A stretch of DNA of 64,000 nt from a virus: IMG/VR virus record IMGVR_UViG_3300032287_001394; one strand, written 5' to 3'. Below the pieces are notes generated by a model, which was not told the DNA's origin, made no database searches, and was given only the letters and a program-made list of their open reading frames with translations. The position numbers and the translations under genes were made by a program. Shown here piece by piece: positions 29,160-39,029 of this stretch (position 1 is its first letter; each line of letters starts with the position of its first letter).

Positions 29160-29167
29160 TATAAATA
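29160..29167 (+). promoter_or_regulatory. Late promoter heading the curli locus
   Basis: TATAAATA 4 nt before ATG 29172. Confidence 0.8.
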
Positions 29168-29171
29168 GAAT

Positions 29172-29450
29172 ATGGGAGAGATATTCAAACTTATAGCAGA
29201 CGTAGGATTTCCAATAGCCGGAGCATGTGCGGCAGGTTACTTTGTATTCCTTACAGTTAGGTTTATCCTTGAAGGTGTTACTGGATCCGTAAAAGGTATG
29301 TCTGGTATCATCAAAGCTTTGGATAGAAGAGTAGCAGCTATGAATCATGATGTTATTCGCATCGACACTAAAGTATCTCATGCATTAGGTATCCCACCAG
29401 ATTTAGATAGAATTGCAAGAGCTGAGCAATCGGACGCTAGGAGAGACTAG
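29172..29450 (+). CDS. Small single-TM protein (paralog 1)
   Basis: VGFPIAG...GYFV TM followed by a helical tail. Confidence 0.75.
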   Translation: MGEIFKLIADVGFPIAGACAAGYFVFLTVRFILEGVTGSVKGMSGIIKALDRRVAAMNHDVIRIDTKVSHALGIPPDLDRIARAEQSDARRD

Positions 29451-29719
29451 TGGAAGACTTAGCAGATTTAATTAATAAGTATGGGTTTCCCATTATTGCG
29501 GCAGGCGGGTTAGGGTACTTCGTCTACTATGTTTGGAAATGGGTAACTGAAGAAATTGACCCTGTTATAGGTGAATCTAATAAAGTTTTAATTGAACTAA
29601 TCGATCGTATCAGGATGTTAGATAACGACTTGATTAGACTCAATCAAAAAGTGAACGTCATTTTATCTTTAAGAGAGAAGGAACAAAATGAAGCTCACGA
29701 CAAGGATACTAAGTCTTAG
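29450..29719 (+). CDS. Small single-TM protein (paralog 2)
   Basis: YGFPIIA...GYFV; DRIRMLDNDLIRL mirrors DRRVAAMNHDVIRI of paralog 1. Confidence 0.75.
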   Translation: MEDLADLINKYGFPIIAAGGLGYFVYYVWKWVTEEIDPVIGESNKVLIELIDRIRMLDNDLIRLNQKVNVILSLREKEQNEAHDKDTKS

Positions 29720-30140
29720 TATTTTATTGACAGGTTTTGCTGTTCAAGCACAACCGCTCCCTGATTATACATTCAAGAGCCCATCATTTAACGGTAATGG
29801 GTACTCTGCACACGTCTTGACTATTGAGAACCAAGAACACAATCGCAGAGATGCTATTGAAAAAGAAATCCAAGCAGCTCTTGATAAAGAAAAGAACGAA
29901 GCAAAGAATACGAATATATCTAAGTTCCTTAACAACCTAGAATCCCGTATCTATGCACAGATTTCTCAAAACGTGGCGACTGCCATGTTTGCAGATGGTG
30001 GTAGTAATGCCGGCACATTAAACTTTGAAGGCAACATCATCAATTGGACAAAGAGCTCTACTGAGATAACTCTTAACGTGACTGATTATGTAGGTAGCAG
30101 CACGTCTATATCAATACCATTAGGATCATTTCAGTTCTAA
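29688..30140 (+). CDS. csgF: Curli assembly protein CsgF
   Basis: Signal peptide, YTFKSPSFNGNG N-terminal CsgF-type motif, adjacent to csgG. Confidence 0.85.
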   Translation: MKLTTRILSLSILLTGFAVQAQPLPDYTFKSPSFNGNGYSAHVLTIENQEHNRRDAIEKEIQAALDKEKNEAKNTNISKFLNNLESRIYAQISQNVATAMFADGGSNAGTLNFEGNIINWTKSSTEITLNVTDYVGSSTSISIPLGSFQF

Positions 30141-30961
30141 TGAAACATTTTTTAATAATACTATCGCTTCTAGTTTTATCTGGTTGCGCGACTTCTACAG
30201 TTATTAAAGATGTAGAGAAACCTCTCATCTCTAAAAACTTAATGCAAAAGGAATTCGACATGCTTCCTGGCCCACATGGCAAGAAGCTATCTATTGCTGT
30301 ATATAGTTTTGCTGATAAGACTGGTCAGAGAAAACCAAGTGCTAACGTAGCTCAACTATCGACGGCAGTTACACAAGGTGCTGATGCATTCCTCATCAAG
30401 GCATTACAAGATGTGGGTAAAGGTCAGTGGTTTGATGTTGTCGAACGAGTTGGCTTGGATAGTCTAACTAAAGAGCGTCAGCTGATTCGCCAAATGCGCG
30501 AAGCTTACGAGGGTGACAAAGCCAAGCCTCTATCTCCCATGATGTTTGCGGGAATTATATTAGAAGGTGGTATCGTAGGATATGATTCATCGACAAGGTC
30601 TGGTGGATCTGCGATGAGGATGTTGGGCATTGGCCCACAAACACAATATTCTGAGGATATAGTAACTATCAGCTTAAGAGCTGTTAGTGTGAATTCAGGA
30701 AAAGTTTTAGTATCAGTGACAGTGCAGAAGACGGTTTATTCTGCTGCTGACAGCTTAGCGATGTTGAAGTTCGTTAAGAATGGAACACAAGCATTTGAAT
30801 TGGAGACAGGATTAACTATCAACGAGCCAGGTACATTAGCTGTTAAAGCTGCTGTTGAGGCTGCAGTTGTTGAGCTTATTAAAGAAGGAGAGAAGAAAGG
30901 TGTATGGGAGTTCTCATATCCTTATGTCGCTCCAGAAAATAAAATAGAGGAGACAAAATAG
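30140..30961 (+). CDS. csgG: Curli secretion channel CsgG
   Basis: LSGC lipobox; AVYSFADKTGQRK, STAVTQGA, WFDVVERVGLDSLTKERQLIR, EGGIVGYD. Confidence 0.95.
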   Translation: MKHFLIILSLLVLSGCATSTVIKDVEKPLISKNLMQKEFDMLPGPHGKKLSIAVYSFADKTGQRKPSANVAQLSTAVTQGADAFLIKALQDVGKGQWFDVVERVGLDSLTKERQLIRQMREAYEGDKAKPLSPMMFAGIILEGGIVGYDSSTRSGGSAMRMLGIGPQTQYSEDIVTISLRAVSVNSGKVLVSVTVQKTVYSAADSLAMLKFVKNGTQAFELETGLTINEPGTLAVKAAVEAAVVELIKEGEKKGVWEFSYPYVAPENKIEETK

Positions 30962-31744
30962 ATGAACAACTATTTAAAGATAATGGTTGCGATGATATTT
31001 TCGGCGTCTGCATTCGCAGCAGACAATAGTATCTACATTGACCAATCAGGTGATAATTCTACTATTGATATCACTCAAACGGGTGCTGGTAACGTTATTC
31101 GTGGGATTCAAGGAGTTGGTACTGGTAATACAACGCCAGCTAAGATCTATGGTAATAATACTGCTATAGATATCCAACAAGTTGGTTCTACTAACACGTT
31201 AAACTTAGGTGTGAATACATCTACTGCAACTGGTAGAGCATACGGTATTGACTTAACATACTACGTGACTGGTAATTCTGGTACTGCTACTATTAACAGT
31301 AATAACTCTGGTACAGGTACTTCTGGATCTAACTTTATTGACGTAAGACAAACAGGCAACTCTGCAGGTATTAACTTAAATATCTTAGGTTCTAAGAATG
31401 ACTTTACTGCTGTAACATCAGGTGGTTCTGGTAATAGTATCACAGCATCAATTACTGCTGACGAGACTGTTAATAATATATCAATGACTGGTGGTGGTAG
31501 CAATACATTAACACAGACTACTACAAGTAATAAAGCAACAAACAATATTACTACACTTGGTGCAAGTAATGGTATAGTGTTAACACAGTCTGGTACAGCT
31601 GGAACTAATGGTCATGCATTTACATTAAATCTAACTGGTTCAAGTAATACATTAAACGTAACACAATCAGGTACTATTGATACCACAGTGAACTTACTTA
31701 GCAATGGTAGTGGTAATGCATGGAACATCACAACTGGAAATTAA
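30962..31744 (+). CDS. Curlin-repeat protein (CsgA/CsgB-like)
   Basis: Signal peptide then repeated N-x5-Q-x-G-x2-N units (NSIYIDQSGDNSTIDITQTGAGN). Confidence 0.8.
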   Translation: MNNYLKIMVAMIFSASAFAADNSIYIDQSGDNSTIDITQTGAGNVIRGIQGVGTGNTTPAKIYGNNTAIDIQQVGSTNTLNLGVNTSTATGRAYGIDLTYYVTGNSGTATINSNNSGTGTSGSNFIDVRQTGNSAGINLNILGSKNDFTAVTSGGSGNSITASITADETVNNISMTGGGSNTLTQTTTSNKATNNITTLGASNGIVLTQSGTAGTNGHAFTLNLTGSSNTLNVTQSGTIDTTVNLLSNGSGNAWNITTGN

Positions 31745-32835
31745 TAGTTCTACTCTTATTCGCTGTTAATTCATACGCAGCGATAGGAACTATTACTGAA
31801 CAAAGTAATACCGCTCCTAGCATATCGCGAAAGAGCGGTACACTTTCAGGCACAAAAGGTACAGGCGTTGAGATGTCTGATACCATCAAAACAACTCAAG
31901 GTAAAGTAGGTATTACCTTTGAAGATAAAACAAAAGTAGACATCACAGAAAACTCGAAGTTAGTTATCGATGAGTTCGTCTATGATCCAAATTCTAAGAA
32001 GGGCGGAAAGTTAGCCGTTAACATTGCATTAGGAACTGCACGATATGCTTCTGGTCAAATTGCGAAGAACAATCCGCAGAGCGTGGCGATTAATACTCCT
32101 ACGGCTACTGTCGCTGTCCGTGGTACAGACTTTACTGCTACTGTTGATGAGTTAGGTAGATCCACATTCATACTATTGCCTTCATGTCCAAAAGGTTGGA
32201 TTGACATAGAAAAAGACTGTAAGACTGGTAAGATCGAAGTTATTACGGATGAAGGTAAGGTTCTATTAGATAAAGCATTCCAAGCTACGAGGGTAGATTC
32301 AAAAGAAACAAGGCCATTCAAACCAGTCATCGTTAATCTGACAGAAGACATGATTAATAACCTATTGGTATTATCTCCTCCAAAAGAACTAAGAGAGACT
32401 GATAAAGATAGACAGCGAAATAGAGAATCTGCAAAGGGAGCACTTGATGTTGACTTCCTTGCAGAGAATAAACTAGTAGACGTACTAGCTAAAGAAGAGA
32501 AAGAGATGTACCAAGATAAGTTATCTCGTAACCTGTTAGATAATGACTTCCTTGCAAACGTATTAGACATCATTAATGCGCAACTAGCAGCACAACTAGA
32601 TTTACTTGGTAAGACAAAGACAGGTTTATTACCTGATTATGTACCAACTTCAGGTGTTACAGTTGAGGTCGATGATTTACAAGTTACATTATGTCGTGAG
32701 GCTGGTGGAGATACTCAATGCATTACGACTCCAAAAAACCAAAATACTACTGTGACACAGACACAAGGTCCAGTAGAAATTAAGAATAGGATTAATAACG
32801 GTGGCGGCACTACTATCAATACTACTCAGAATTAG
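31720..32835 (+). CDS. Exported FecR-domain protein
   Basis: Signal peptide; DTIKT...ITFEDKT...ENSKLVIDEFVYDP...TPTATVAVRGTDF. Confidence 0.85.
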   Translation: MEHHNWKLIVLLLFAVNSYAAIGTITEQSNTAPSISRKSGTLSGTKGTGVEMSDTIKTTQGKVGITFEDKTKVDITENSKLVIDEFVYDPNSKKGGKLAVNIALGTARYASGQIAKNNPQSVAINTPTATVAVRGTDFTATVDELGRSTFILLPSCPKGWIDIEKDCKTGKIEVITDEGKVLLDKAFQATRVDSKETRPFKPVIVNLTEDMINNLLVLSPPKELRETDKDRQRNRESAKGALDVDFLAENKLVDVLAKEEKEMYQDKLSRNLLDNDFLANVLDIINAQLAAQLDLLGKTKTGLLPDYVPTSGVTVEVDDLQVTLCREAGGDTQCITTPKNQNTTVTQTQGPVEIKNRINNGGGTTINTTQN

Positions 32836-34069
32836 TCTTGTATTCTTATTAATATTTAGTACTGTGGCTCAGGCTATAACTTACTCTCCTAATGGGACAT
32901 CAGGATTAAATCTTGTTTATAATGGTAATGATGATGATAATTCTTATACTGTCAATCTGCCTTGGTCAATTAATTTTTTAGGTACTAACTATAGTTCTGT
33001 TTATGTTGGTACAAATGGATATATCACTTTATCCTCACCTAATTCTACTTACTCAGGATTCTCTCCTTCCAATCCAGCTGGTCCACATATAAGCATATAT
33101 CCCGCAGATCGTAGACTATATAAATTGTATTATGCGCAAATAGATGCAGGTACTGCTCAAGCACGATTTGTTATCAGAGCGCAGGGTGTTGATTATTCTA
33201 ATGCCGCGGTCACCTATATATGGGAGGTTCATTTTTATCCAGGTTCATCATATTTTGATATCTACTTTGTAGATGCACCATCATCAGGCAACGCTGGAAC
33301 TACAGGTATTAGTAATGGATCTACTTATGTTTCAACGTTTACCACAACTGAATTAACAGGTATTCGTATTAATGCTAATGGAACACTTGATACCGGTGCA
33401 CCAGCGTATAGTTCATCTATCACTATTGCACAACAAGCACGTAAGAACTCTGAGACTGCTCAAAGGACATCTCAATCTGGTAATGAAATACAGATTGAGC
33501 AGATAGGTGATAATAACAACATTACGATAAGACAAGGTGTTAACGTTACTGGTAAGAATAGGATTGAGTTATACTCTAATGGTAATTATAATACGCTTAA
33601 CTTAAATCAAGGTTATACTACAACAGGAACAGTATCAATAGGAGATAGTAATAACCATTATCTTAATTTAAACTTAATAGGCAATAATAACACAGTAACA
33701 AAACAACAGACTGGTACAAATAACTTTTTAGAGACAACTATAAGTGGTAACAATAATAATGTTACTAATCTTCAACAGGGTACTAGTGGTAAGATATTAT
33801 TTCAGAGTGTGAGTGGTAATAGTAATACAGTGACTACTAATCAGAAGGATTCTGGTCAGCATTACTTGGATCTTAAGTTAACTGGGAATGGTCATAATGT
33901 AGGTGTAACTCAACAAGGAACAGGTAACCACGCTGCTACGATTGACTTGACTAATTCAGGCGGTGCAGCAACACTTAACCTTAACCAGTTAGGATCTACA
34001 AATCAGATATATAGTATACAACAAAGCTGTGTTAATGCTGCAGGCTGTTCAACAAACATTAGCCAATGA
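32801..34069 (+). CDS. Secreted protein: N-terminal globular domain plus C-terminal curlin repeats
   Basis: DDNSYTVNLPWSINFLG...VGTNGYI domain; NEIQIEQIGDNNNITIRQG-type repeats; C-terminal CVNAAGC. Confidence 0.75.
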   Translation: MAALLSILLRISLVFLLIFSTVAQAITYSPNGTSGLNLVYNGNDDDNSYTVNLPWSINFLGTNYSSVYVGTNGYITLSSPNSTYSGFSPSNPAGPHISIYPADRRLYKLYYAQIDAGTAQARFVIRAQGVDYSNAAVTYIWEVHFYPGSSYFDIYFVDAPSSGNAGTTGISNGSTYVSTFTTTELTGIRINANGTLDTGAPAYSSSITIAQQARKNSETAQRTSQSGNEIQIEQIGDNNNITIRQGVNVTGKNRIELYSNGNYNTLNLNQGYTTTGTVSIGDSNNHYLNLNLIGNNNTVTKQQTGTNNFLETTISGNNNNVTNLQQGTSGKILFQSVSGNSNTVTTNQKDSGQHYLDLKLTGNGHNVGVTQQGTGNHAATIDLTNSGGAATLNLNQLGSTNQIYSIQQSCVNAAGCSTNISQ

Positions 34070-34127
34070 TTGACCATGCCAAGATTAATGCGCCTAATGC
34101 TAATAAAAGTTCTAAAGTATATAACAT
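34059..34127 (-). CDS. 22-aa hydrophobic peptide (not in ORF track)
   Basis: Minus strand AAAGGAGAATAAC-ATG; MLYTLELLLALGALILAWSIIG*. Confidence 0.55.
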   Translation of the reverse strand: MLYTLELLLALGALILAWSIIG

Positions 34128-34207
34128 GTTATTCTCCTTTCTATATTACTTATAGGAATAATATGTGTTTCTTTATATTATGTTTTTATAAGCTTATTCC
34201 AGGAATG

Positions 34208-34215
34208 TATAAATA
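34208..34215 (+). promoter_or_regulatory. Late promoter
   Basis: TATAAATA 6 nt before ATG 34222. Confidence 0.75.
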
Positions 34216-34221
34216 AACAAA

Positions 34222-34965
34222 ATGAAAAAGTATAAAACCATTTGCATTTCCGATACACATCTTGGTTCTAAGGATGCAAAGGCTGATTTACTTAATAACT
34301 TCCTTAAGAACCATGAGTGTGATAACCTATTTTTAGTAGGCGATATCATAGATGGTTGGAAGATCCAACAGAATAAATGGAAGTGGAAGCAAAGTCATAC
34401 TAACGTTATCCGTAGGATATTAGGTTATGCTAAACGCGGAACTAAAGTTACGTATGTGACAGGTAATCATGATGAGTTTATTAGACCATTTGTTAATCAA
34501 TTTTCTCTTGGTTCTATTACTATATGCAACCAAGCAGAGTACAGAGGCATTGATGGAAATCTATTCTTAGTAACACATGGCGACATGTTTGATGGCATTA
34601 CAAGAGTTGGCAAATGGATCGGGTTTCTTGGCGATACAGCTTATGACTGTGTATTATGGATCAACACTAAGTTTAATTACATAAGACATAGGTTAGGGTT
34701 TGGTTATTGGTCGTTAAGTAAGTTTCTTAAACATCAAGTAAAGAAAGCGATAGATTTTGTATTCAAATTCGAAGAAAACCTTGCAGGATACTGCGAACGA
34801 AAAAACTTTGACGGAGTTATTTGCGGGCATATCCATACTGCATCGATTAAGTCTATCAATGGAATAATCTATATGAACGACGGAGATTGGGTAGAATCAT
34901 GTTCAGCTCTAGTAGAACATGAAGATGGTAAATGGGAAATAATTTATTGGAATAAAATAATATGA
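34222..34965 (+). CDS. plcP: PlcP-like phospholipase C (LpxH-related metallophosphoesterase)
   Basis: SDTHLG, GDIIDGW, GNHDE, HGD, YWSLSKFLK, CGHIH, NDGDWVESCSALVEH. Confidence 0.8.
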   Translation: MKKYKTICISDTHLGSKDAKADLLNNFLKNHECDNLFLVGDIIDGWKIQQNKWKWKQSHTNVIRRILGYAKRGTKVTYVTGNHDEFIRPFVNQFSLGSITICNQAEYRGIDGNLFLVTHGDMFDGITRVGKWIGFLGDTAYDCVLWINTKFNYIRHRLGFGYWSLSKFLKHQVKKAIDFVFKFEENLAGYCERKNFDGVICGHIHTASIKSINGIIYMNDGDWVESCSALVEHEDGKWEIIYWNKII

Positions 34966-35093
34966 AAGTAAAAAAATTAGTACGCAAGATGTATCTAGCA
35001 TGTGTTAGACACCAAAAGAAGAAGCAAAAGAAACTTTGGTTTAAAGCATTGAAGAAAAGTTTACAACATAAGAAGACGCAAATCATACAATGA
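34962..35093 (+). CDS. 43-aa very basic peptide (not in ORF track)
   Basis: MKVKKLVRKMYLACVRHQKKKQKKLWFK...; ATGA overlaps on both sides. Confidence 0.65.
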   Translation: MKVKKLVRKMYLACVRHQKKKQKKLWFKALKKSLQHKKTQIIQ

Positions 35094-36082
35094 AGATATT
35101 AATAGTAACAGACAATTTAAGAGATCAAGTCAATGGCGTTGTCACCACATACAAAAATATTGAGGATCATGCTGTTTCTGCTGGCCATAGTATTGTTTAT
35201 TTTGATCCCCGGCAGTTCCGTCATATTGATTGTCCTTTTTATCCTGAGGTCAAACTTTCCATTCCTTCGTACTTTATCAGTAAGATTAAGAAGATGGGTG
35301 CGGATCGCATTCACATCGCGACAGAAGGTCCGCTAGGACTATTTGCAAAGTTCTACTGTGACGCAAACAAGATACCATACACCACAGCGTATCATACTAA
35401 GTTTCCAGAATTCTTAAAAAAATTACTATGGATACCTACATCTATCACATATAGGTATCTTAAATGGTTTCACAAGTATTCTAAGGCTACACTAGTCCCT
35501 TCACAATCAATGAAAGATGAGCTAGAATCAAAAGGATTTAAAAACTTAGTTACTTGGACAAGAGGTGTATCACACGAACTAATAACTAAGAGGACTACTT
35601 CTAAAAACAATCAACCACTAAAAGTATTATACGTAGGGCGCGTATCTAAAGAAAAGAACTTAGAAGACTTATGTAAGTTACAAGATGTCTATGATATCAC
35701 TATTGTAGGTGATGGCCCAACATTAAATGATTTAATTCGCAAGTATAGAAAAGTTTATTTTACTGGATATAAGTTTGGAGAAGAGTTATCTAAGATCTAT
35801 TCTGAGAACGATGTATTTGCCTTCCCATCTTTAACAGATACATTTGGTATAGTCATCATTGAAGCAATGTGTAATGGATTGCCAGTGGCAGCATATAGAG
35901 TAACCGGTCCACAGGATATAGTCGAGTATGGAGTTACAGGATACCTAAGTATGTATGGTAATGGGTTAGATTCTTCTATAGAAAAGTGTAGGTCATTAGA
36001 TAATATTAAAGTCCAAGATCTATCTGTTAATAAGTGGACGTGGAAAAACTGTTATGATATATTCATTAACACAATAAAATAA
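35090..36082 (+). CDS. GT4 glycosyltransferase, Agt-like glycolipid synthase
   Basis: QVNGVV, IHIATEGPLG, TTAYHTKFPE, YVGRVSKEKN, FPSLTDTFGIVIIEAM. Confidence 0.85.
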   Translation: MKILIVTDNLRDQVNGVVTTYKNIEDHAVSAGHSIVYFDPRQFRHIDCPFYPEVKLSIPSYFISKIKKMGADRIHIATEGPLGLFAKFYCDANKIPYTTAYHTKFPEFLKKLLWIPTSITYRYLKWFHKYSKATLVPSQSMKDELESKGFKNLVTWTRGVSHELITKRTTSKNNQPLKVLYVGRVSKEKNLEDLCKLQDVYDITIVGDGPTLNDLIRKYRKVYFTGYKFGEELSKIYSENDVFAFPSLTDTFGIVIIEAMCNGLPVAAYRVTGPQDIVEYGVTGYLSMYGNGLDSSIEKCRSLDNIKVQDLSVNKWTWKNCYDIFINTIK

Positions 36083-36083
36083 T

Positions 36084-36112
36084 TTTACTTTAATTAAATA
36101 TAATAATATAAT
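36084..36112 (+). promoter_or_regulatory. Sigma70-type promoter
   Basis: TTTACT-17 nt-TATAAT, ATG 6 nt later. Confidence 0.7.
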
Positions 36113-36118
36113 ACTATT

Positions 36119-38131
36119 ATGAAAAAAATATTACTAAGCCCATGGTTGGCTCTATTAACGTTAACATTATTAATAGCGATCAGAGTTACTGACCCATCAT
36201 TTGTAGAGTCAGTTAGACTAAGATACTTTGATACATTAATTACAAGTAAGCAACAAACTATTTCAAAACAGGTTCATGTCGTAAACATTGATGATAAGTC
36301 AATTGAACGACTAGGGCAATTCCCATTTCCAAGGACACAATATGCAAATATTATCGAAGATCTTTATGCTCGTGGCGCTGGCCTCGTTGTTTTTAATCTG
36401 TTTATGCCTGATAGTGATAGGTTTAGACAAGATGCTGGACTTGCTGATACCATCGCTAGACACCCTGTGGTCTTACCTCAGGTAGCTACATCAGACAAAC
36501 AAAAACCTGGTGCATTTAGACCAGGAGTTTCAGAGATTGGTGGTAAAGCTTCTGACTTTGCAGTAAATTATCCAGGCATTCAAGCCAATATATCATTATT
36601 TAACAGCAAAGCTGCTGGAATAGGAGTCGTAAATGTATTACCTGAAATTGATGGTGTTGTTCGTCGTATCCCTATGGTCGTTGCAAGTGAAGGCCAACTG
36701 TACCCAAGTATCAGTCTTGAAACAATGCGTGTTGCAGTCGGAGACCCAAGTTTCCAAGTTAAATCTACCGATGCAGGAATCGAAGCTGTTCGAATCCCCA
36801 AGTTCGCAAAGATTACCACTGACACCGTTGGCCGAATATGGGTCGACTGGTCGTCTAATCCAATTGAACACTCCGTTGTGGACCTCCCAAAATCATTCAA
36901 CGGAGGTATCGTCATCGTTGGGCTTACCGCTCGGGGACTTAATAACCCAGTCGCAACTGCCAGAGGTGCAATCTATCCGCATTATGTACAAGCTTCTGTA
37001 CTAGATACACTAACATCAGGCACCAGCATATCACGTCCTGACTGGGCAGATGGTGCTGAGATATTAGGATTAGTATTACTTTCTATCATATCAATTTTAT
37101 TAACAAGGTGGACATATGGATTTATTCCTGTCATTGCTATTCTCGGTGGTGTTTATTTCGGCAGTAGGTATATTTTCCAAGGACATTCGCTTTTACTGGA
37201 TGTTAGCTTTCCTATTATTGGGCTTGTGTTGGTTTACTTACACAGCTATACAGTTAAGTTCCTTAGCGAGTTAAGCCAGAAGTTACAGATCAAGAAACAG
37301 TTTGGTTCTTATGTAAGTCCTATCATCGTTGAACGTTTACAAAAAAATCCAGATCTTATTAAACTAGGTGGTGAAGAGAAGATGCTGACCGCAGTCATGA
37401 CTGACATGCGTAACTTTACTGGACTTGGCGAGAAGTATGGTGCAGACGTAGAAGGTTTTACTGCTATCATGAACCAATACATGACAGCGATCGCTCAACC
37501 GGTATTTAAGAATGATGGATGTTTAATTAAGTTTATTGGTGATGCATCACTACATATTCATGGTGCTCCGTTAGATGATGATAAACATGCATATCATGCA
37601 GTTAAGACGACGCTTGAAATGATTGAAGCAGTCGAAGAGTTTAATAAGCATTTAGAATCTATTGGCAAACCTCCTGTCGGTATGGGTGCTGGTGTCAATA
37701 CAGGTAAGATCTTAGTAGGTAACATCGGATCTGAAGGTAAGATGGGCTATGACGTGTTAGGTGATCCTGTCTCAGTAGCTGCACGATTAGAGAGTCAAAC
37801 AAAATCATATGGCGTATTGATGATCCTTGGTCCTGATACAGCTGAAGCAGTTAAAGATGACTTTGATGTCGTATGGTTAGATAACATCGCTGTTAAAGGT
37901 AAGACAGTTGGATTAGACATCTACACAGTCGGTAAGACTATCAAACATAAACATGAAGAGTATAAGAAAGAGTATACTCGCGGTAATTGGAAACGTGCCA
38001 CAGAATGGGCATTAGAACTCATCGACGATAAAGACGTCACCATCAAAGACTATTATCATAAGATGATAGAGAGAATGAATCAAGGTCTCCCAGCTAACTG
38101 GGATGGCACTTATCACGCTACCTCTAAGTAG
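36119..38131 (+). CDS. CHASE2-domain class III adenylate cyclase
   Basis: TM, CHASE2 (VNIDDKSI..LGQFPFPR, DGVVRRIP), 3 TM, cyclase domain (TDMRNFT, KFIGDA, YDVLGD..SVAARLE, VKGK). Confidence 0.9.
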   Translation: MKKILLSPWLALLTLTLLIAIRVTDPSFVESVRLRYFDTLITSKQQTISKQVHVVNIDDKSIERLGQFPFPRTQYANIIEDLYARGAGLVVFNLFMPDSDRFRQDAGLADTIARHPVVLPQVATSDKQKPGAFRPGVSEIGGKASDFAVNYPGIQANISLFNSKAAGIGVVNVLPEIDGVVRRIPMVVASEGQLYPSISLETMRVAVGDPSFQVKSTDAGIEAVRIPKFAKITTDTVGRIWVDWSSNPIEHSVVDLPKSFNGGIVIVGLTARGLNNPVATARGAIYPHYVQASVLDTLTSGTSISRPDWADGAEILGLVLLSIISILLTRWTYGFIPVIAILGGVYFGSRYIFQGHSLLLDVSFPIIGLVLVYLHSYTVKFLSELSQKLQIKKQFGSYVSPIIVERLQKNPDLIKLGGEEKMLTAVMTDMRNFTGLGEKYGADVEGFTAIMNQYMTAIAQPVFKNDGCLIKFIGDASLHIHGAPLDDDKHAYHAVKTTLEMIEAVEEFNKHLESIGKPPVGMGAGVNTGKILVGNIGSEGKMGYDVLGDPVSVAARLESQTKSYGVLMILGPDTAEAVKDDFDVVWLDNIAVKGKTVGLDIYTVGKTIKHKHEEYKKEYTRGNWKRATEWALELIDDKDVTIKDYYHKMIERMNQGLPANWDGTYHATSK

Positions 38132-38952: not shown

Positions 38953-39029
38953 GGGCCTATAGCTCAGTTGGTTAGAGCAGAGGACTCATAATCCTTTGGT
39001 CCATGGTTCGAGTCCATGTGGGCCCACCA
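38953..39029 (+). tRNA. tRNA with CAU anticodon, probably Ile2 (lysidine) type
   Basis: GGGCCTA/TGGGCCC acceptor stem, D arm, CTCATAA loop, GGTTCGAGTCC T arm, encoded CCA. Confidence 0.93.

What the first reader, a model, noticed from the sequence alone, without database searches (positions are those of the whole stretch)
31720..38131. Possible trans-envelope signalling chain: curli pore, FecR-domain protein, CHASE2 adenylate cyclase
Seen: a FecR-domain gene embedded between the curlin genes and a complete membrane CHASE2 cyclase about 2 kb downstream with its own sigma70-type promoter. Metal-binding Asp residues (TDMRNFT, IGDA) and adenine-specifying K/D are present, but the usual N of NxxxR is Ser (VSVAARL). 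Known: FecR-domain proteins relay signals across the periplasm and often neighbour CHASE2 cyclases in bacteria. Inference: the phage may sense an outside cue (contact, fibre state, superinfection) and convert it to cAMP to tune host metabolism or lysis timing.
Basis: partly seen in the sequence, partly recalled or inferred. Interest (0 to 1): 0.8.

Follow-up and report, generated by a model that had tools for sequence, protein, structure and literature searches.

The report
Phage curli cassette with FecR-CHASE2 cyclase
An uncultured T4-like aquatic phage carries the curli fibre-export gene block already published in 2022, with its exported FecR-type protein and membrane receptor cyclase; the genes are real and tightly linked, but whether they form one signalling chain is untested, and the one fresh point is an unusual, conserved active-site variant of the cyclase.

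Summary
The genes are there. CsgF, CsgG, a curlin-repeat protein, a secreted FecR-domain protein and a second curlin-repeat protein lie at 29688-34069. A TM-CHASE2-3TM class III cyclase lies at 36119-38131.

The cassette is conserved. 28 of 29 cyclase-anchored and 29 of 30 CsgG-anchored relatives with enough flank hold both parts. It also occurs in Pelagibacter phage HTVC008M and Methylophilales phage Melnitz.

It is already published: Wittmers et al. 2022 (PMC9599517) describe the viral T8SS with "putatively regulatory" FecR and adenylate cyclase. This scan has also noted it on other DNA (325 notes in at least 204 genomes).

What I add:
- The cyclase is a CHASE2 receptor. In Alphaproteobacteria a FecR-domain gene lay within about 8 kb of 17 of 40 sampled CHASE2 cyclase genes (about 2% expected), and never with curli genes.
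- The phage FecR protein has only the PupR/FecR CJM fold, so it is not an anti-sigma factor.
- The Asn-to-Ser change covaries perfectly with Thr-to-Asp (31 D+S, 33 T+N). It arose once inside the phage clade, is under strong purifying selection, and moves between CHASE2 backgrounds by recombination.

No cNMP-binding domain (PF00027) was found in five related phage records. The "own promoter" is no better than chance. No physical link between the parts is shown.

The parts
29160..29167 (+). T4-type late promoter motif TATAAATA, 5 nt before the first gene of the block
   Evidence: An exact motif lies within 60 nt upstream of the homologous gene in 25 of 61 relatives.
29172..29450 (+). Small single-TM protein (92 aa), paralogue of the next gene. 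By position it matches the 'HK' of the published cassette.
   Evidence: phrog_18771 E 1e-32. No Pfam kinase domain. It flanks the module in nearly all relatives.
29450..29719 (+). Second small single-TM paralogue (89 aa)
   Evidence: phrog_18771 E 2e-35; faint holin PHROG match E 8e-4.
29688..30140 (+). CsgF-like curli assembly protein with signal peptide
   Evidence: Pfam CsgF E 2.3e-15.
30140..30961 (+). CsgG outer-membrane curli pore lipoprotein (lipobox LSGC)
   Evidence: Pfam CsgG E 1.2e-47; sequence.
30962..31744 (+). Secreted curlin-repeat protein (CsgA/B-like)
   Evidence: Curlin_rpt E 0.005 here. 34 of 48 family members match, best E 2.9e-17.
31720..32835 (+). Secreted FecR-domain protein: signal peptide, CJM/FecR beta domain (about 23-215), low-confidence linker (about 216-300), and a six-strand C-terminal beta domain (313-370)
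   Evidence: Pfam FecR in 48 of 48 relatives. AF2 model pLDDT 77.7. Match to PupR 6ovk_R: Z 15.3, rmsd 2.6 over 135 residues.
32801..34069 (+). Second curlin-repeat protein with an about 190-aa N-terminal domain of unknown family
   Evidence: NCBIfam CsgA E 1.6e-4. Homologues in relatives carry PA14, F5/8 type C or GLEYA heads.
34208..34215 (+). Second late promoter motif TATAAATA, before the inserted cargo genes
34222..36082 (+). Inserted cargo, not part of the chain: metallophosphoesterase (34222-34965) and GT4 glycosyltransferase (35090-36082)
   Evidence: Present between the second curlin gene (or FecR) and the cyclase in only some relatives.
36084..36112 (+). Sigma70-like hexamer pair (TTTACT-17-TATAAT) directly before the cyclase start
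   Evidence: not enriched over shuffles. Shared by few relatives.
36119..38131 (+). Receptor cyclase: TM1, periplasmic CHASE2 (about 24-312), three TM segments, class III catalytic domain (about 405-600, active site D-K-D-D-S-R), and a conserved C-terminal tail

Best explanation
This is a member of the viral type VIII (curli) secretion cassette of pelagiphage-like T4-type phages.

Shown:
- A late-promoter-headed block encodes two small TM proteins, CsgF, CsgG, two exported curlin-repeat proteins and an exported FecR-domain protein. A CHASE2 receptor class III cyclase follows.
- The FecR-domain/CHASE2-cyclase gene pair is common in Alphaproteobacteria. There it occurs without curli genes.

Inferred:
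- The phage lineage joined this envelope-sensor pair to a curli export kit.
- Late in infection CsgG/CsgF export curlin subunits, some with lectin-like heads in relatives.
- The FecR-domain protein has only the periplasmic CJM fold of FecR/PupR plus a linker and a small C-terminal beta domain. It reports secretion, fibre or envelope state to the periplasmic CHASE2 domain.
- CHASE2 in turn sets the output of the cytoplasmic cyclase, giving cAMP or a related cyclic nucleotide that acts on host targets.

The Ser-for-Asn active site is a derived, selected variant, not decay.
For: Identity and linkage:
- Domain calls.
- The same gene order in HTVC008M and Melnitz.
- 28 of 29 cyclase-anchored loci with at least 6 kb on both sides hold CsgG and FecR. 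29 of 30 CsgG-anchored loci with at least 8 kb downstream hold the cyclase, and 30 of 30 hold FecR.
- ORF overlaps couple curlin 1, FecR and curlin 2.
- The block stays near the cyclase even when inverted (L039, L041, L066, L067).

Sensor pair:
- CHASE2 is present in 89 of 201 alphaproteobacterial genomes.
- 39 of 40 sampled CHASE2 proteins are cyclases. 17 of 40 have a FecR-domain ORF within about 8 kb, 11 of them next to the cyclase gene.
- Those genomes hold only 2-9 FecR genes each, so about 2% is expected.
- Literature precedents: the Burkholderia LysM-FecR/CHASE2 kinase operon (PMC5192318); S. meliloti cyaD1 beside FecR-domain SMc02177 (PMC5498481), with an outer-membrane receptor NsrA needed for signalling (PMC7529298).

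FecR fold: match to the PupR CJM subdomain, Z 15.3.

Enzyme:
- D429, K471, D475 and R556 are invariant in 64 sequences.
- Catalytic-domain dN/dS is 0.02-0.1.

Topology puts CHASE2 in the periplasm and the catalytic domain in the cytoplasm.
Against: - No binding between any two parts is shown.
- FecR N-domain distances correlate with CsgF (0.71) and CsgG (0.62) much more than with CHASE2 (0.37) or the catalytic domain (0.14). Some phages pair a window-like CHASE2 (about 83% identity) with a FecR only about 40-47% identical. There is therefore no sign of pair-specific co-evolution.
- Cargo genes are often inserted between FecR/curlin 2 and the cyclase, and in some relatives the two lie on opposite strands.
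- One 118-kb contig holds the cyclase but no FecR. It is estimated at only 33% complete.
- No PF00027 cNMP-binding domain was found in five related phage records, so the receiver of the signal is unknown.
- None of 45 alphaproteobacterial cyclase domains shows the D+S active site. From my own recollection, not checked here, replacing this Asn lowers kcat of mammalian cyclase strongly.
Confidence: 0.42

Rival explanations
1. Two functions share one island. The FecR-domain protein is an accessory or structural part of the phage curli system, for example a stand-in for the missing CsgE/CsgC or a fibre-associated protein. The CHASE2 cyclase is a separate host-manipulating gene that senses something unrelated to curli.
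For: - FecR co-inherits with CsgF and CsgG, not with CHASE2, and overlaps both curlin genes.
- Its C-terminal 45 residues resemble the last curlin repeat weakly: hhalign score 21.2, P 0.0017, above all 30 column shuffles.
- Cargo genes and inversions separate the cyclase from the curli block in many relatives.
- The region is described as hypervariable (PMC7029224).
Against: - FecR-domain genes are specifically enriched next to CHASE2 cyclases in bacteria, and 0 of 40 such loci hold curli genes. The FecR gene most simply came with the cyclase.
- Linkage of all parts is above 95% in both directions.
- Pfam finds no Curlin_rpt in any of 48 FecR proteins.
Confidence: 0.3
2. The block, including the two small TM paralogues, times lysis or blocks superinfection. 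The pore or the TM proteins act on the envelope, and the cyclase is a periplasmic alarm comparable in logic to T4 lysis inhibition.
For: - A late promoter motif heads the block.
- The second TM paralogue has a faint holin-family match.
- A lysis-timing role was proposed for Melnitz CsgGF (PMC9004378) and superinfection defence for pelagiphage curli (PMC9599517).
Against: - The holin match is weak (E 8e-4 over about 30 residues).
- Nothing links cAMP to lysis here.
- Curlin proteins with lectin-type heads in relatives point to an adhesive fibre rather than a lysis device.
Confidence: 0.15
3. The D+S type catalytic domain is a weak or inactive cyclase, so the protein acts as a receptor or scaffold, or it makes a product other than cAMP.
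For: - Ser replaces the transition-state Asn.
- The D+S clade sits on a long stem branch (0.98 changes per site) inside the phage clade.
- No cellular sequence in the sample shares it.
Against: - All other catalytic residues are invariant in 31 D+S sequences.
- The catalytic domain is under stronger purifying selection than the sensor domain.
- Lys plus Asp is the classical adenine-reading pair of class III cyclases (my own recollection, not checked here).
Confidence: 0.13

Closest known systems
Viral T8SS (curli) region of pelagiphages: Wittmers et al. 2022, PMC9599517; also Zaragoza-Solas et al. 2020, PMC7029224; Buchholz et al. 2022, PMC9004378; records KC465899 (HTVC008M) and MZ577097 (Melnitz)
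   Same: - Same gene order: two small upstream genes, CsgF, CsgG, curlin-repeat protein, FecR, second curlin-repeat protein, adenylate cyclase.
- Proteins are 35-47% identical to those of the two cultured phages.
- The paper already calls FecR and the cyclase putatively regulatory and reports multigene selection and transcripts at sea.
   Different: - This phage has a metallophosphoesterase and a GT4 gene inserted before the cyclase, and a D+S active site.
- The papers do not mention CHASE2 (0 occurrences), read FecR as an iron regulator, and call the roughly 90-aa upstream proteins histidine kinases. Pfam does not support that last reading here.
Bacterial FecR-domain / CHASE2 sensor gene pairs (Burkholderia LysM-FecR + CHASE2 histidine kinase operon, PMC5192318; alphaproteobacterial CHASE2 cyclases sampled here)
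   Same: A secreted FecR-domain protein is encoded beside a TM-CHASE2-3TM sensor. In Alphaproteobacteria the output is a class III cyclase in 39 of 40 sampled loci.
   Different: - None of the 40 bacterial loci holds CsgG or CsgF.
- Bacterial partners often carry LysM or giant adhesin-type repeats (He_PIG, cadherin-like, Big_9, Laminin_G_3) instead of the phage linker plus small beta domain.
- Bacterial active sites read S/T + N, never D + S.
- The function of these pairs is itself unknown.
Sinorhizobium meliloti CyaD1/CyaD2/CyaK receptor cyclases with outer-membrane NsrA and the cAMP receptor Clr (PMC5498481, PMC7529298)
   Same: - An inner-membrane receptor cyclase (CHASE2 in CyaD1; PMC5498481) receives an outside signal with the help of an outer-membrane protein.
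- cyaD1 neighbours a FecR-domain gene.
   Different: - The outer-membrane component here would be CsgG, not NsrA. Homology to NsrA was not tested.
- A Clr-like receptor is absent from five related phage records.
- In S. meliloti the FecR-domain gene was not required for signal perception (PMC5498481).
FecR/PupR anti-sigma regulators of cell-surface signalling (PDB 6ovk)
   Same: The CJM (Pfam FecR) beta domain: Z 15.3, rmsd 2.6 A over 135 residues.
   Different: The phage protein starts with a cleavable signal peptide. It has no cytoplasmic anti-sigma domain and no membrane anchor, and the match does not cover the STN subdomain.

Membership tests
Pelagiphage viral T8SS (curli) cassette (Wittmers et al. 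2022) | CsgF and CsgG genes adjacent | tested here: met
   Pfam CsgF E 2.3e-15 and CsgG E 1.2e-47, at 29688-30961.
Pelagiphage viral T8SS (curli) cassette (Wittmers et al. 2022) | Curlin-repeat (CsgA/B-like) gene after CsgG, often a second one after FecR | tested here: met
   Curlin_rpt E 0.005 and CsgA model E 1.6e-4 in the window. 34 of 48 family members hit Curlin_rpt.
Pelagiphage viral T8SS (curli) cassette (Wittmers et al. 2022) | FecR-domain gene and adenylate cyclase gene linked to the curli genes | tested here: met
Pelagiphage viral T8SS (curli) cassette (Wittmers et al. 2022) | One or two 'histidine kinase' genes upstream of CsgF | tested here: inconclusive
   Two paralogous genes sit at that position (29172-29719). 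They encode 89-92 aa single-TM proteins with no kinase domain in Pfam or NCBIfam.
Class III nucleotidyl cyclase (active enzyme) | Two metal-binding Asp | tested here: met
   D429 and D475, invariant in 64 sequences.
Class III nucleotidyl cyclase (active enzyme) | Base-reading pair (Lys plus Asp or Thr/Ser for adenine) | tested here: met
   K471 and D545.
Class III nucleotidyl cyclase (active enzyme) | Transition-state Asn of the N-x-x-x-R motif | tested here: not met
   Ser552 aligns with the Asn of the Cya2 (2w01) and OaPAC (5x4t) entries. It is shared by 31 of 64 phage relatives.
Class III nucleotidyl cyclase (active enzyme) | Transition-state Arg | tested here: met
   R556 is invariant.
Class III nucleotidyl cyclase (active enzyme) | Measured cyclase activity and product | not testable with these tools
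   Needs an enzyme assay.
CHASE2 receptor architecture | TM, extracytoplasmic CHASE2, three TM segments, cytoplasmic output domain | tested here: met
   CHASE2 residues 15-324, E 2.5e-39. Hydrophobic segments at 1-24 and about 309-377.
FecR/PupR-type anti-sigma factor | Cytoplasmic anti-sigma domain and membrane anchor | tested here: not met
   The protein begins with a signal peptide followed directly by the beta domain.
FecR/PupR-type anti-sigma factor | CJM (Pfam FecR) periplasmic domain | tested here: met
   Z 15.3 to 6ovk_R residues 111-249. Pfam FecR in 48 of 48.
FecR/PupR-type anti-sigma factor | C-terminal STN-like subdomain that binds the transducer's signalling domain | tested here: inconclusive
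   The structural match ends at PupR residue 249. The phage C-terminal domain, modelled alone (pLDDT 93), has no match above Z 3.8.
Bacterial FecR / CHASE2 sensor gene pair | FecR-domain gene next to the CHASE2 sensor gene | tested here: inconclusive
   In the window the two are 3.3 kb apart with three genes between. In many relatives the second curlin gene, at most, lies between them, and in a few FecR directly precedes the cyclase. In bacteria 11 of 40 are directly adjacent.
Bacterial FecR / CHASE2 sensor gene pair | Physical or functional coupling of the two proteins | not testable with these tools

The most novel reading that the evidence does not exclude
Phage receptor cyclases of this cassette have split into two active-site classes.
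- The derived D+S class (Asp545/Ser552, as in this window) arose once inside the phage clade on a long branch.
- It is held under strong purifying selection.
- It is moved onto different CHASE2 sensors by recombination.
- It makes a different product, or has different kinetics or regulation, from the ancestral T+N class.
Related phages would then couple the same envelope sensor to two different second-messenger outputs.
Probability: 0.15. Interest if true: 0.6.

Novelty: new member of a known kind. Interest (0 to 1): 0.33.

Why it matters
These phages belong to the group that includes phages of SAR11 and OM43, some of the most abundant bacteria in water. They give the infected cell a secretion system, and apparently a sensor, that those hosts are reported to lack (PMC9599517, PMC9004378).

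If the FecR/CHASE2 pair really reads the state of the envelope or of the exported fibre, it would be a phage-encoded outside-to-inside signalling route. It would also be a handle on the unknown ligand logic of CHASE2 sensors, which I found in 89 of 201 sampled alphaproteobacterial genomes.

As it stands, the cassette and the regulatory idea are published. The value here is narrower:
- a correct reading of the parts (a CHASE2 receptor; FecR as a CJM-only exported protein, not an iron regulator);
- a measured bacterial precedent for the gene pair;
- the two-class active site, which tells experimenters which variants to assay.

Tried and rejected
- Co-folding of the FecR protein (residues 22-371) with the CHASE2 domain (24-312), both with alignments, gave no verdict (score 0.00, controls not run). 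It counts neither way.
- megablast of the region against phage records found nothing. Only protein-level searches did.
- The genome-contig scan with the cyclase alignment returned 20 loci. Those at 37-60% identity with enough flank (seven of L083-L091) carry the phage cassette, and five short contigs are similar fragments, so these look like phage contigs binned into MAGs of unrelated phyla. True cellular hits were only 26-31% identical. The Thiomicrospira locus had no FecR neighbour.
- The profile search with 48 FecR proteins returned mostly the phage family in its best 150.
- I rejected the idea that the FecR C-terminus is a curlin repeat as a firm claim. Profile similarity is weak (probability 15%, P 0.0017), Pfam sees no Curlin_rpt in 48 proteins, and the confident model of the domain has no structural match (best Z 3.8, no Foldseek hit at E <= 0.001).
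- I rejected the metallophosphoesterase as a cAMP phosphodiesterase partner. Its best matches are LpxH-type enzymes, it pairs with a lipid-type GT4, and it is only a sporadic insert.
- No whole genome is held for the window. The host, and any host cAMP receptor, could not be examined.


Full report
WHAT IS THERE. The window is a T4-like phage. It has tail-fibre, head, primase and ribonucleotide reductase genes and T4-type late motifs ahead of many ORFs.

All genes of the block lie on the + strand:
- two paralogous single-TM proteins of about 90 aa (29172-29719);
- CsgF (29688-30140);
- CsgG with a lipobox (30140-30961);
- a secreted curlin-repeat protein (30962-31744);
- a secreted FecR-domain protein (31720-32835);
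- a second secreted curlin-repeat protein with an extra N-terminal domain (32801-34069);
- a metallophosphoesterase (34222-34965);
- a GT4 glycosyltransferase (35090-36082);
- a 670-aa TM-CHASE2-3TM class III cyclase (36119-38131).

The FecR gene overlaps both curlin genes. A late motif, TATAAATA, heads the block at 29160, and a second one precedes the phosphoesterase at 34208.

The catalytic-residue reading is right. In alignments to solved cyclases and to 63 phage relatives, both metal Asp, the base-reading Lys and Asp, and the transition-state Arg are present. Ser552 replaces the canonical Asn.

The sigma70 promoter exists only as a 10/12 hexamer match that ends 6 nt before the ATG. Such matches are as frequent in shuffled sequence, and a comparable element precedes the cyclase in 5 of 82 sequences checked (the window and 81 relatives). 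The pore genes lie upstream of the stated span.

CONSERVATION. Protein searches find the same order in Pelagibacter phage HTVC008M and Methylophilales phage Melnitz, where the genes are annotated as FecR domain protein and adenylate/guanylate cyclase.

IMG/VR holds at least 149 cyclase relatives and 122 CsgG relatives.
- Of the cyclase-anchored loci with at least 6 kb on both sides, 28 of 29 also hold CsgG and FecR.
- Of the CsgG-anchored loci with at least 8 kb downstream, 29 of 30 hold the cyclase and 30 of 30 hold FecR. The one exception ends at a contig edge.
- In four relatives the curli-FecR block is inverted but still lies beside the cyclase.
- The phosphoesterase and GT4 genes are a sporadic insert.

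PRIOR ART. Zaragoza-Solas et al. 2020 (PMC7029224) and Buchholz et al. 2022 (PMC9004378) described the phage CsgF/CsgG genes without mentioning cyclase, FecR or CHASE2.

Wittmers et al. 2022 (PMC9599517) described the full cassette in podo- and myo-type pelagiphages. It runs one or two "HK" genes, CsgF, CsgG, CsgA/B, FecR, often a second CsgA/B, and an adenylate cyclase. They called FecR and the cyclase putatively regulatory, found transcripts at sea, and argued for selection at the multigene level. They do not mention CHASE2, and they read FecR as an iron regulator.

This scan has also flagged the cassette many times on other DNA: 325 notes in at least 204 genomes, with several follow-ups that reached the same placing. 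The cassette, and the idea that FecR and the cyclase regulate it, are therefore known.

WHAT THE PARTS ARE. The FecR protein models with mean pLDDT 77.7.
- Residues 51-216 superpose on the CJM subdomain of the anti-sigma regulator PupR (6ovk_R: Z 15.3, rmsd 2.6 A, 135 residues).
- There is no anti-sigma domain and no membrane anchor, and the match does not cover the STN subdomain. It shares a domain with FecR but is not a FecR-type regulator.
- A low-confidence linker follows.
- The C-terminal six-strand beta domain models at pLDDT 93 on its own and has no structural match.
- Its last 45 residues resemble the last curlin repeat only weakly (hhalign P 0.0017, above 30 of 30 column shuffles), and Pfam sees no curlin repeat in it.

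The curlin-like proteins are real curlins at family level: 34 of 48 match Curlin_rpt, best E 2.9e-17. Some relatives of the second one carry PA14, discoidin or GLEYA heads, which suggests an adhesive fibre.

THE BACTERIAL PRECEDENT, TESTED. CHASE2 occurs in 89 of 201 sampled alphaproteobacterial genomes. I fetched about 17 kb around one CHASE2 gene in each of 40 genomes and searched it with profiles built from the phage proteins.
- 39 of 40 CHASE2 proteins are cyclases.
- 17 of 40 loci hold a FecR-domain ORF, 11 of them next to the cyclase gene.
- None holds CsgG or CsgF.
- Pfam confirmed the FecR domain in the eight neighbours I checked. Two of these are roughly 2000-aa proteins with He_PIG, cadherin-like, Big_9 and Laminin_G_3 domains.
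- Five of these genomes hold 2-9 FecR genes each, which gives about 2% expected by chance. In two of them every FecR gene lies near a CHASE2 gene.

Literature agrees (PMC5192318, PMC5498481). The S. meliloti system shows that receptor cyclases, among them the CHASE2 cyclase CyaD1, can depend on an outer-membrane protein (PMC7529298). The simplest history is that a FecR/CHASE2-cyclase pair was joined to a curli kit in the phage lineage.

LIMITS OF THE SIGNALLING-CHAIN READING. No contact between parts is shown.
- Across 55 phages, FecR N-domain distances follow CsgF (Spearman 0.71) and CsgG (0.62) much more than CHASE2 (0.37) or the catalytic domain (0.14). This measure is confounded by map distance, but it gives no sign of pair-specific co-evolution.
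- No PF00027 cNMP-binding domain was found in Melnitz, HTVC008M or three large IMG/VR records, so any receiver must be a host protein or of another kind.
- The host of this phage is unknown, and no whole genome is held for the window.

THE ACTIVE-SITE VARIANT. In 64 cyclases, positions 545 and 552 covary perfectly: Thr+Asn in 33 and Asp+Ser in 31. All 45 alphaproteobacterial cyclase domains near CHASE2 keep the Asn, and 42 read Ser/Thr+Asn. None reads Asp+Ser.

In a quick maximum-likelihood tree:
- the phage domains form one clade (SH-aLRT 99);
- inside it the D+S sequences form one clade (99) on a stem of 0.98 changes per site.

The careful tree search did not finish, and the bacterial sample is one class only.

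Catalytic-domain dN/dS within the D+S clade is 0.02-0.1, lower than for the CHASE2 domain in the same pairs (0.09-0.33). Many dS values are saturated. The least saturated pairs give 0.032 (window vs L003, dS 0.79) and 0.023 (L058 vs L064, dS 0.39).

The window is a mosaic:
- Its CHASE2 domain is 79-91% identical to many phages that have T+N domains.
- Its catalytic domain is about 52% identical to theirs.
- That catalytic domain is 93-98% identical to those of L003, L027 and L031, and the last two have CHASE2 domains only 46-51% identical.

So the Ser is a selected feature of a derived enzyme class that recombines between sensors, not decay. Its product is unknown.

VERDICT. The trans-envelope chain is a reasonable but unproven reading. 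Its FecR-CHASE2 link has solid comparative support, and its curli-FecR link rests on gene order and co-inheritance only. The new and testable element is the two-class active site.

Noticed in passing
window 34222-36082: A metallophosphoesterase (weak LpxH-type matches) and a GT4 glycosyltransferase (weak glycolipid-synthase matches) sit behind their own late motif. In relatives the pair sits at varying places or is absent.
   Followed up: partly
window 29172-29719: Two paralogous single-TM proteins of about 90 aa flank the cassette in nearly all relatives, sometimes on the far side of the cyclase on the opposite strand. The 2022 paper labels the genes at this position histidine kinases. Pfam and NCBIfam find no kinase domain, and one paralogue has a faint holin-family match.
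   Followed up: partly
L083-L091 (GTDB genome contigs): Contigs carrying cyclases of the phage type (37-60% identical), seven of them with other genes of the phage cassette, are binned into MAGs labelled Luteolibacter, Bacteroidetes, Chitinophagales, Legionellales, Rhodobacteraceae and Pirellulales. These are most likely phage contigs mis-binned into bacterial genomes.
   Followed up: partly
relatives of window 32801-34069 (alignment A5): Some homologues of the second curlin-repeat protein carry PA14, F5/8 type C or GLEYA carbohydrate-binding domains in place of the window's unassigned N-terminal domain. Protein lengths range from about 200 to 716 aa.
   Followed up: partly
relatives of window 30140-30961: CsgG homologues in several relatives are extended to 300-444 aa, against 273 aa here. 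The extra part was not examined.
   Followed up: no
L231, L244 and other alphaproteobacterial loci: Bacterial FecR-domain neighbours of CHASE2 cyclases include proteins of 2000 aa and more with an N-terminal FecR domain followed by adhesin-type repeats. This hints that the FecR domain is the cell-proximal end of a surface protein.
   Followed up: partly
window, whole: 12 of the 13 exact TATAAATA motifs lie on the + strand, most of them shortly upstream of an ORF start. The total count alone is not above chance (13 found, 9.8 +/- 2.7 expected).
   Followed up: partly
window 38953-39029: A tRNA-Met (CAT) gene lies about 0.8 kb downstream of the cyclase.
   Followed up: no
window 37919-38128 (cyclase residues 601-670): A conserved C-terminal tail after the catalytic domain (invariant Tyr, Arg and Gly) co-varies with the catalytic domain (Spearman 0.54) rather than with CHASE2. 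No family is assigned.
   Followed up: no
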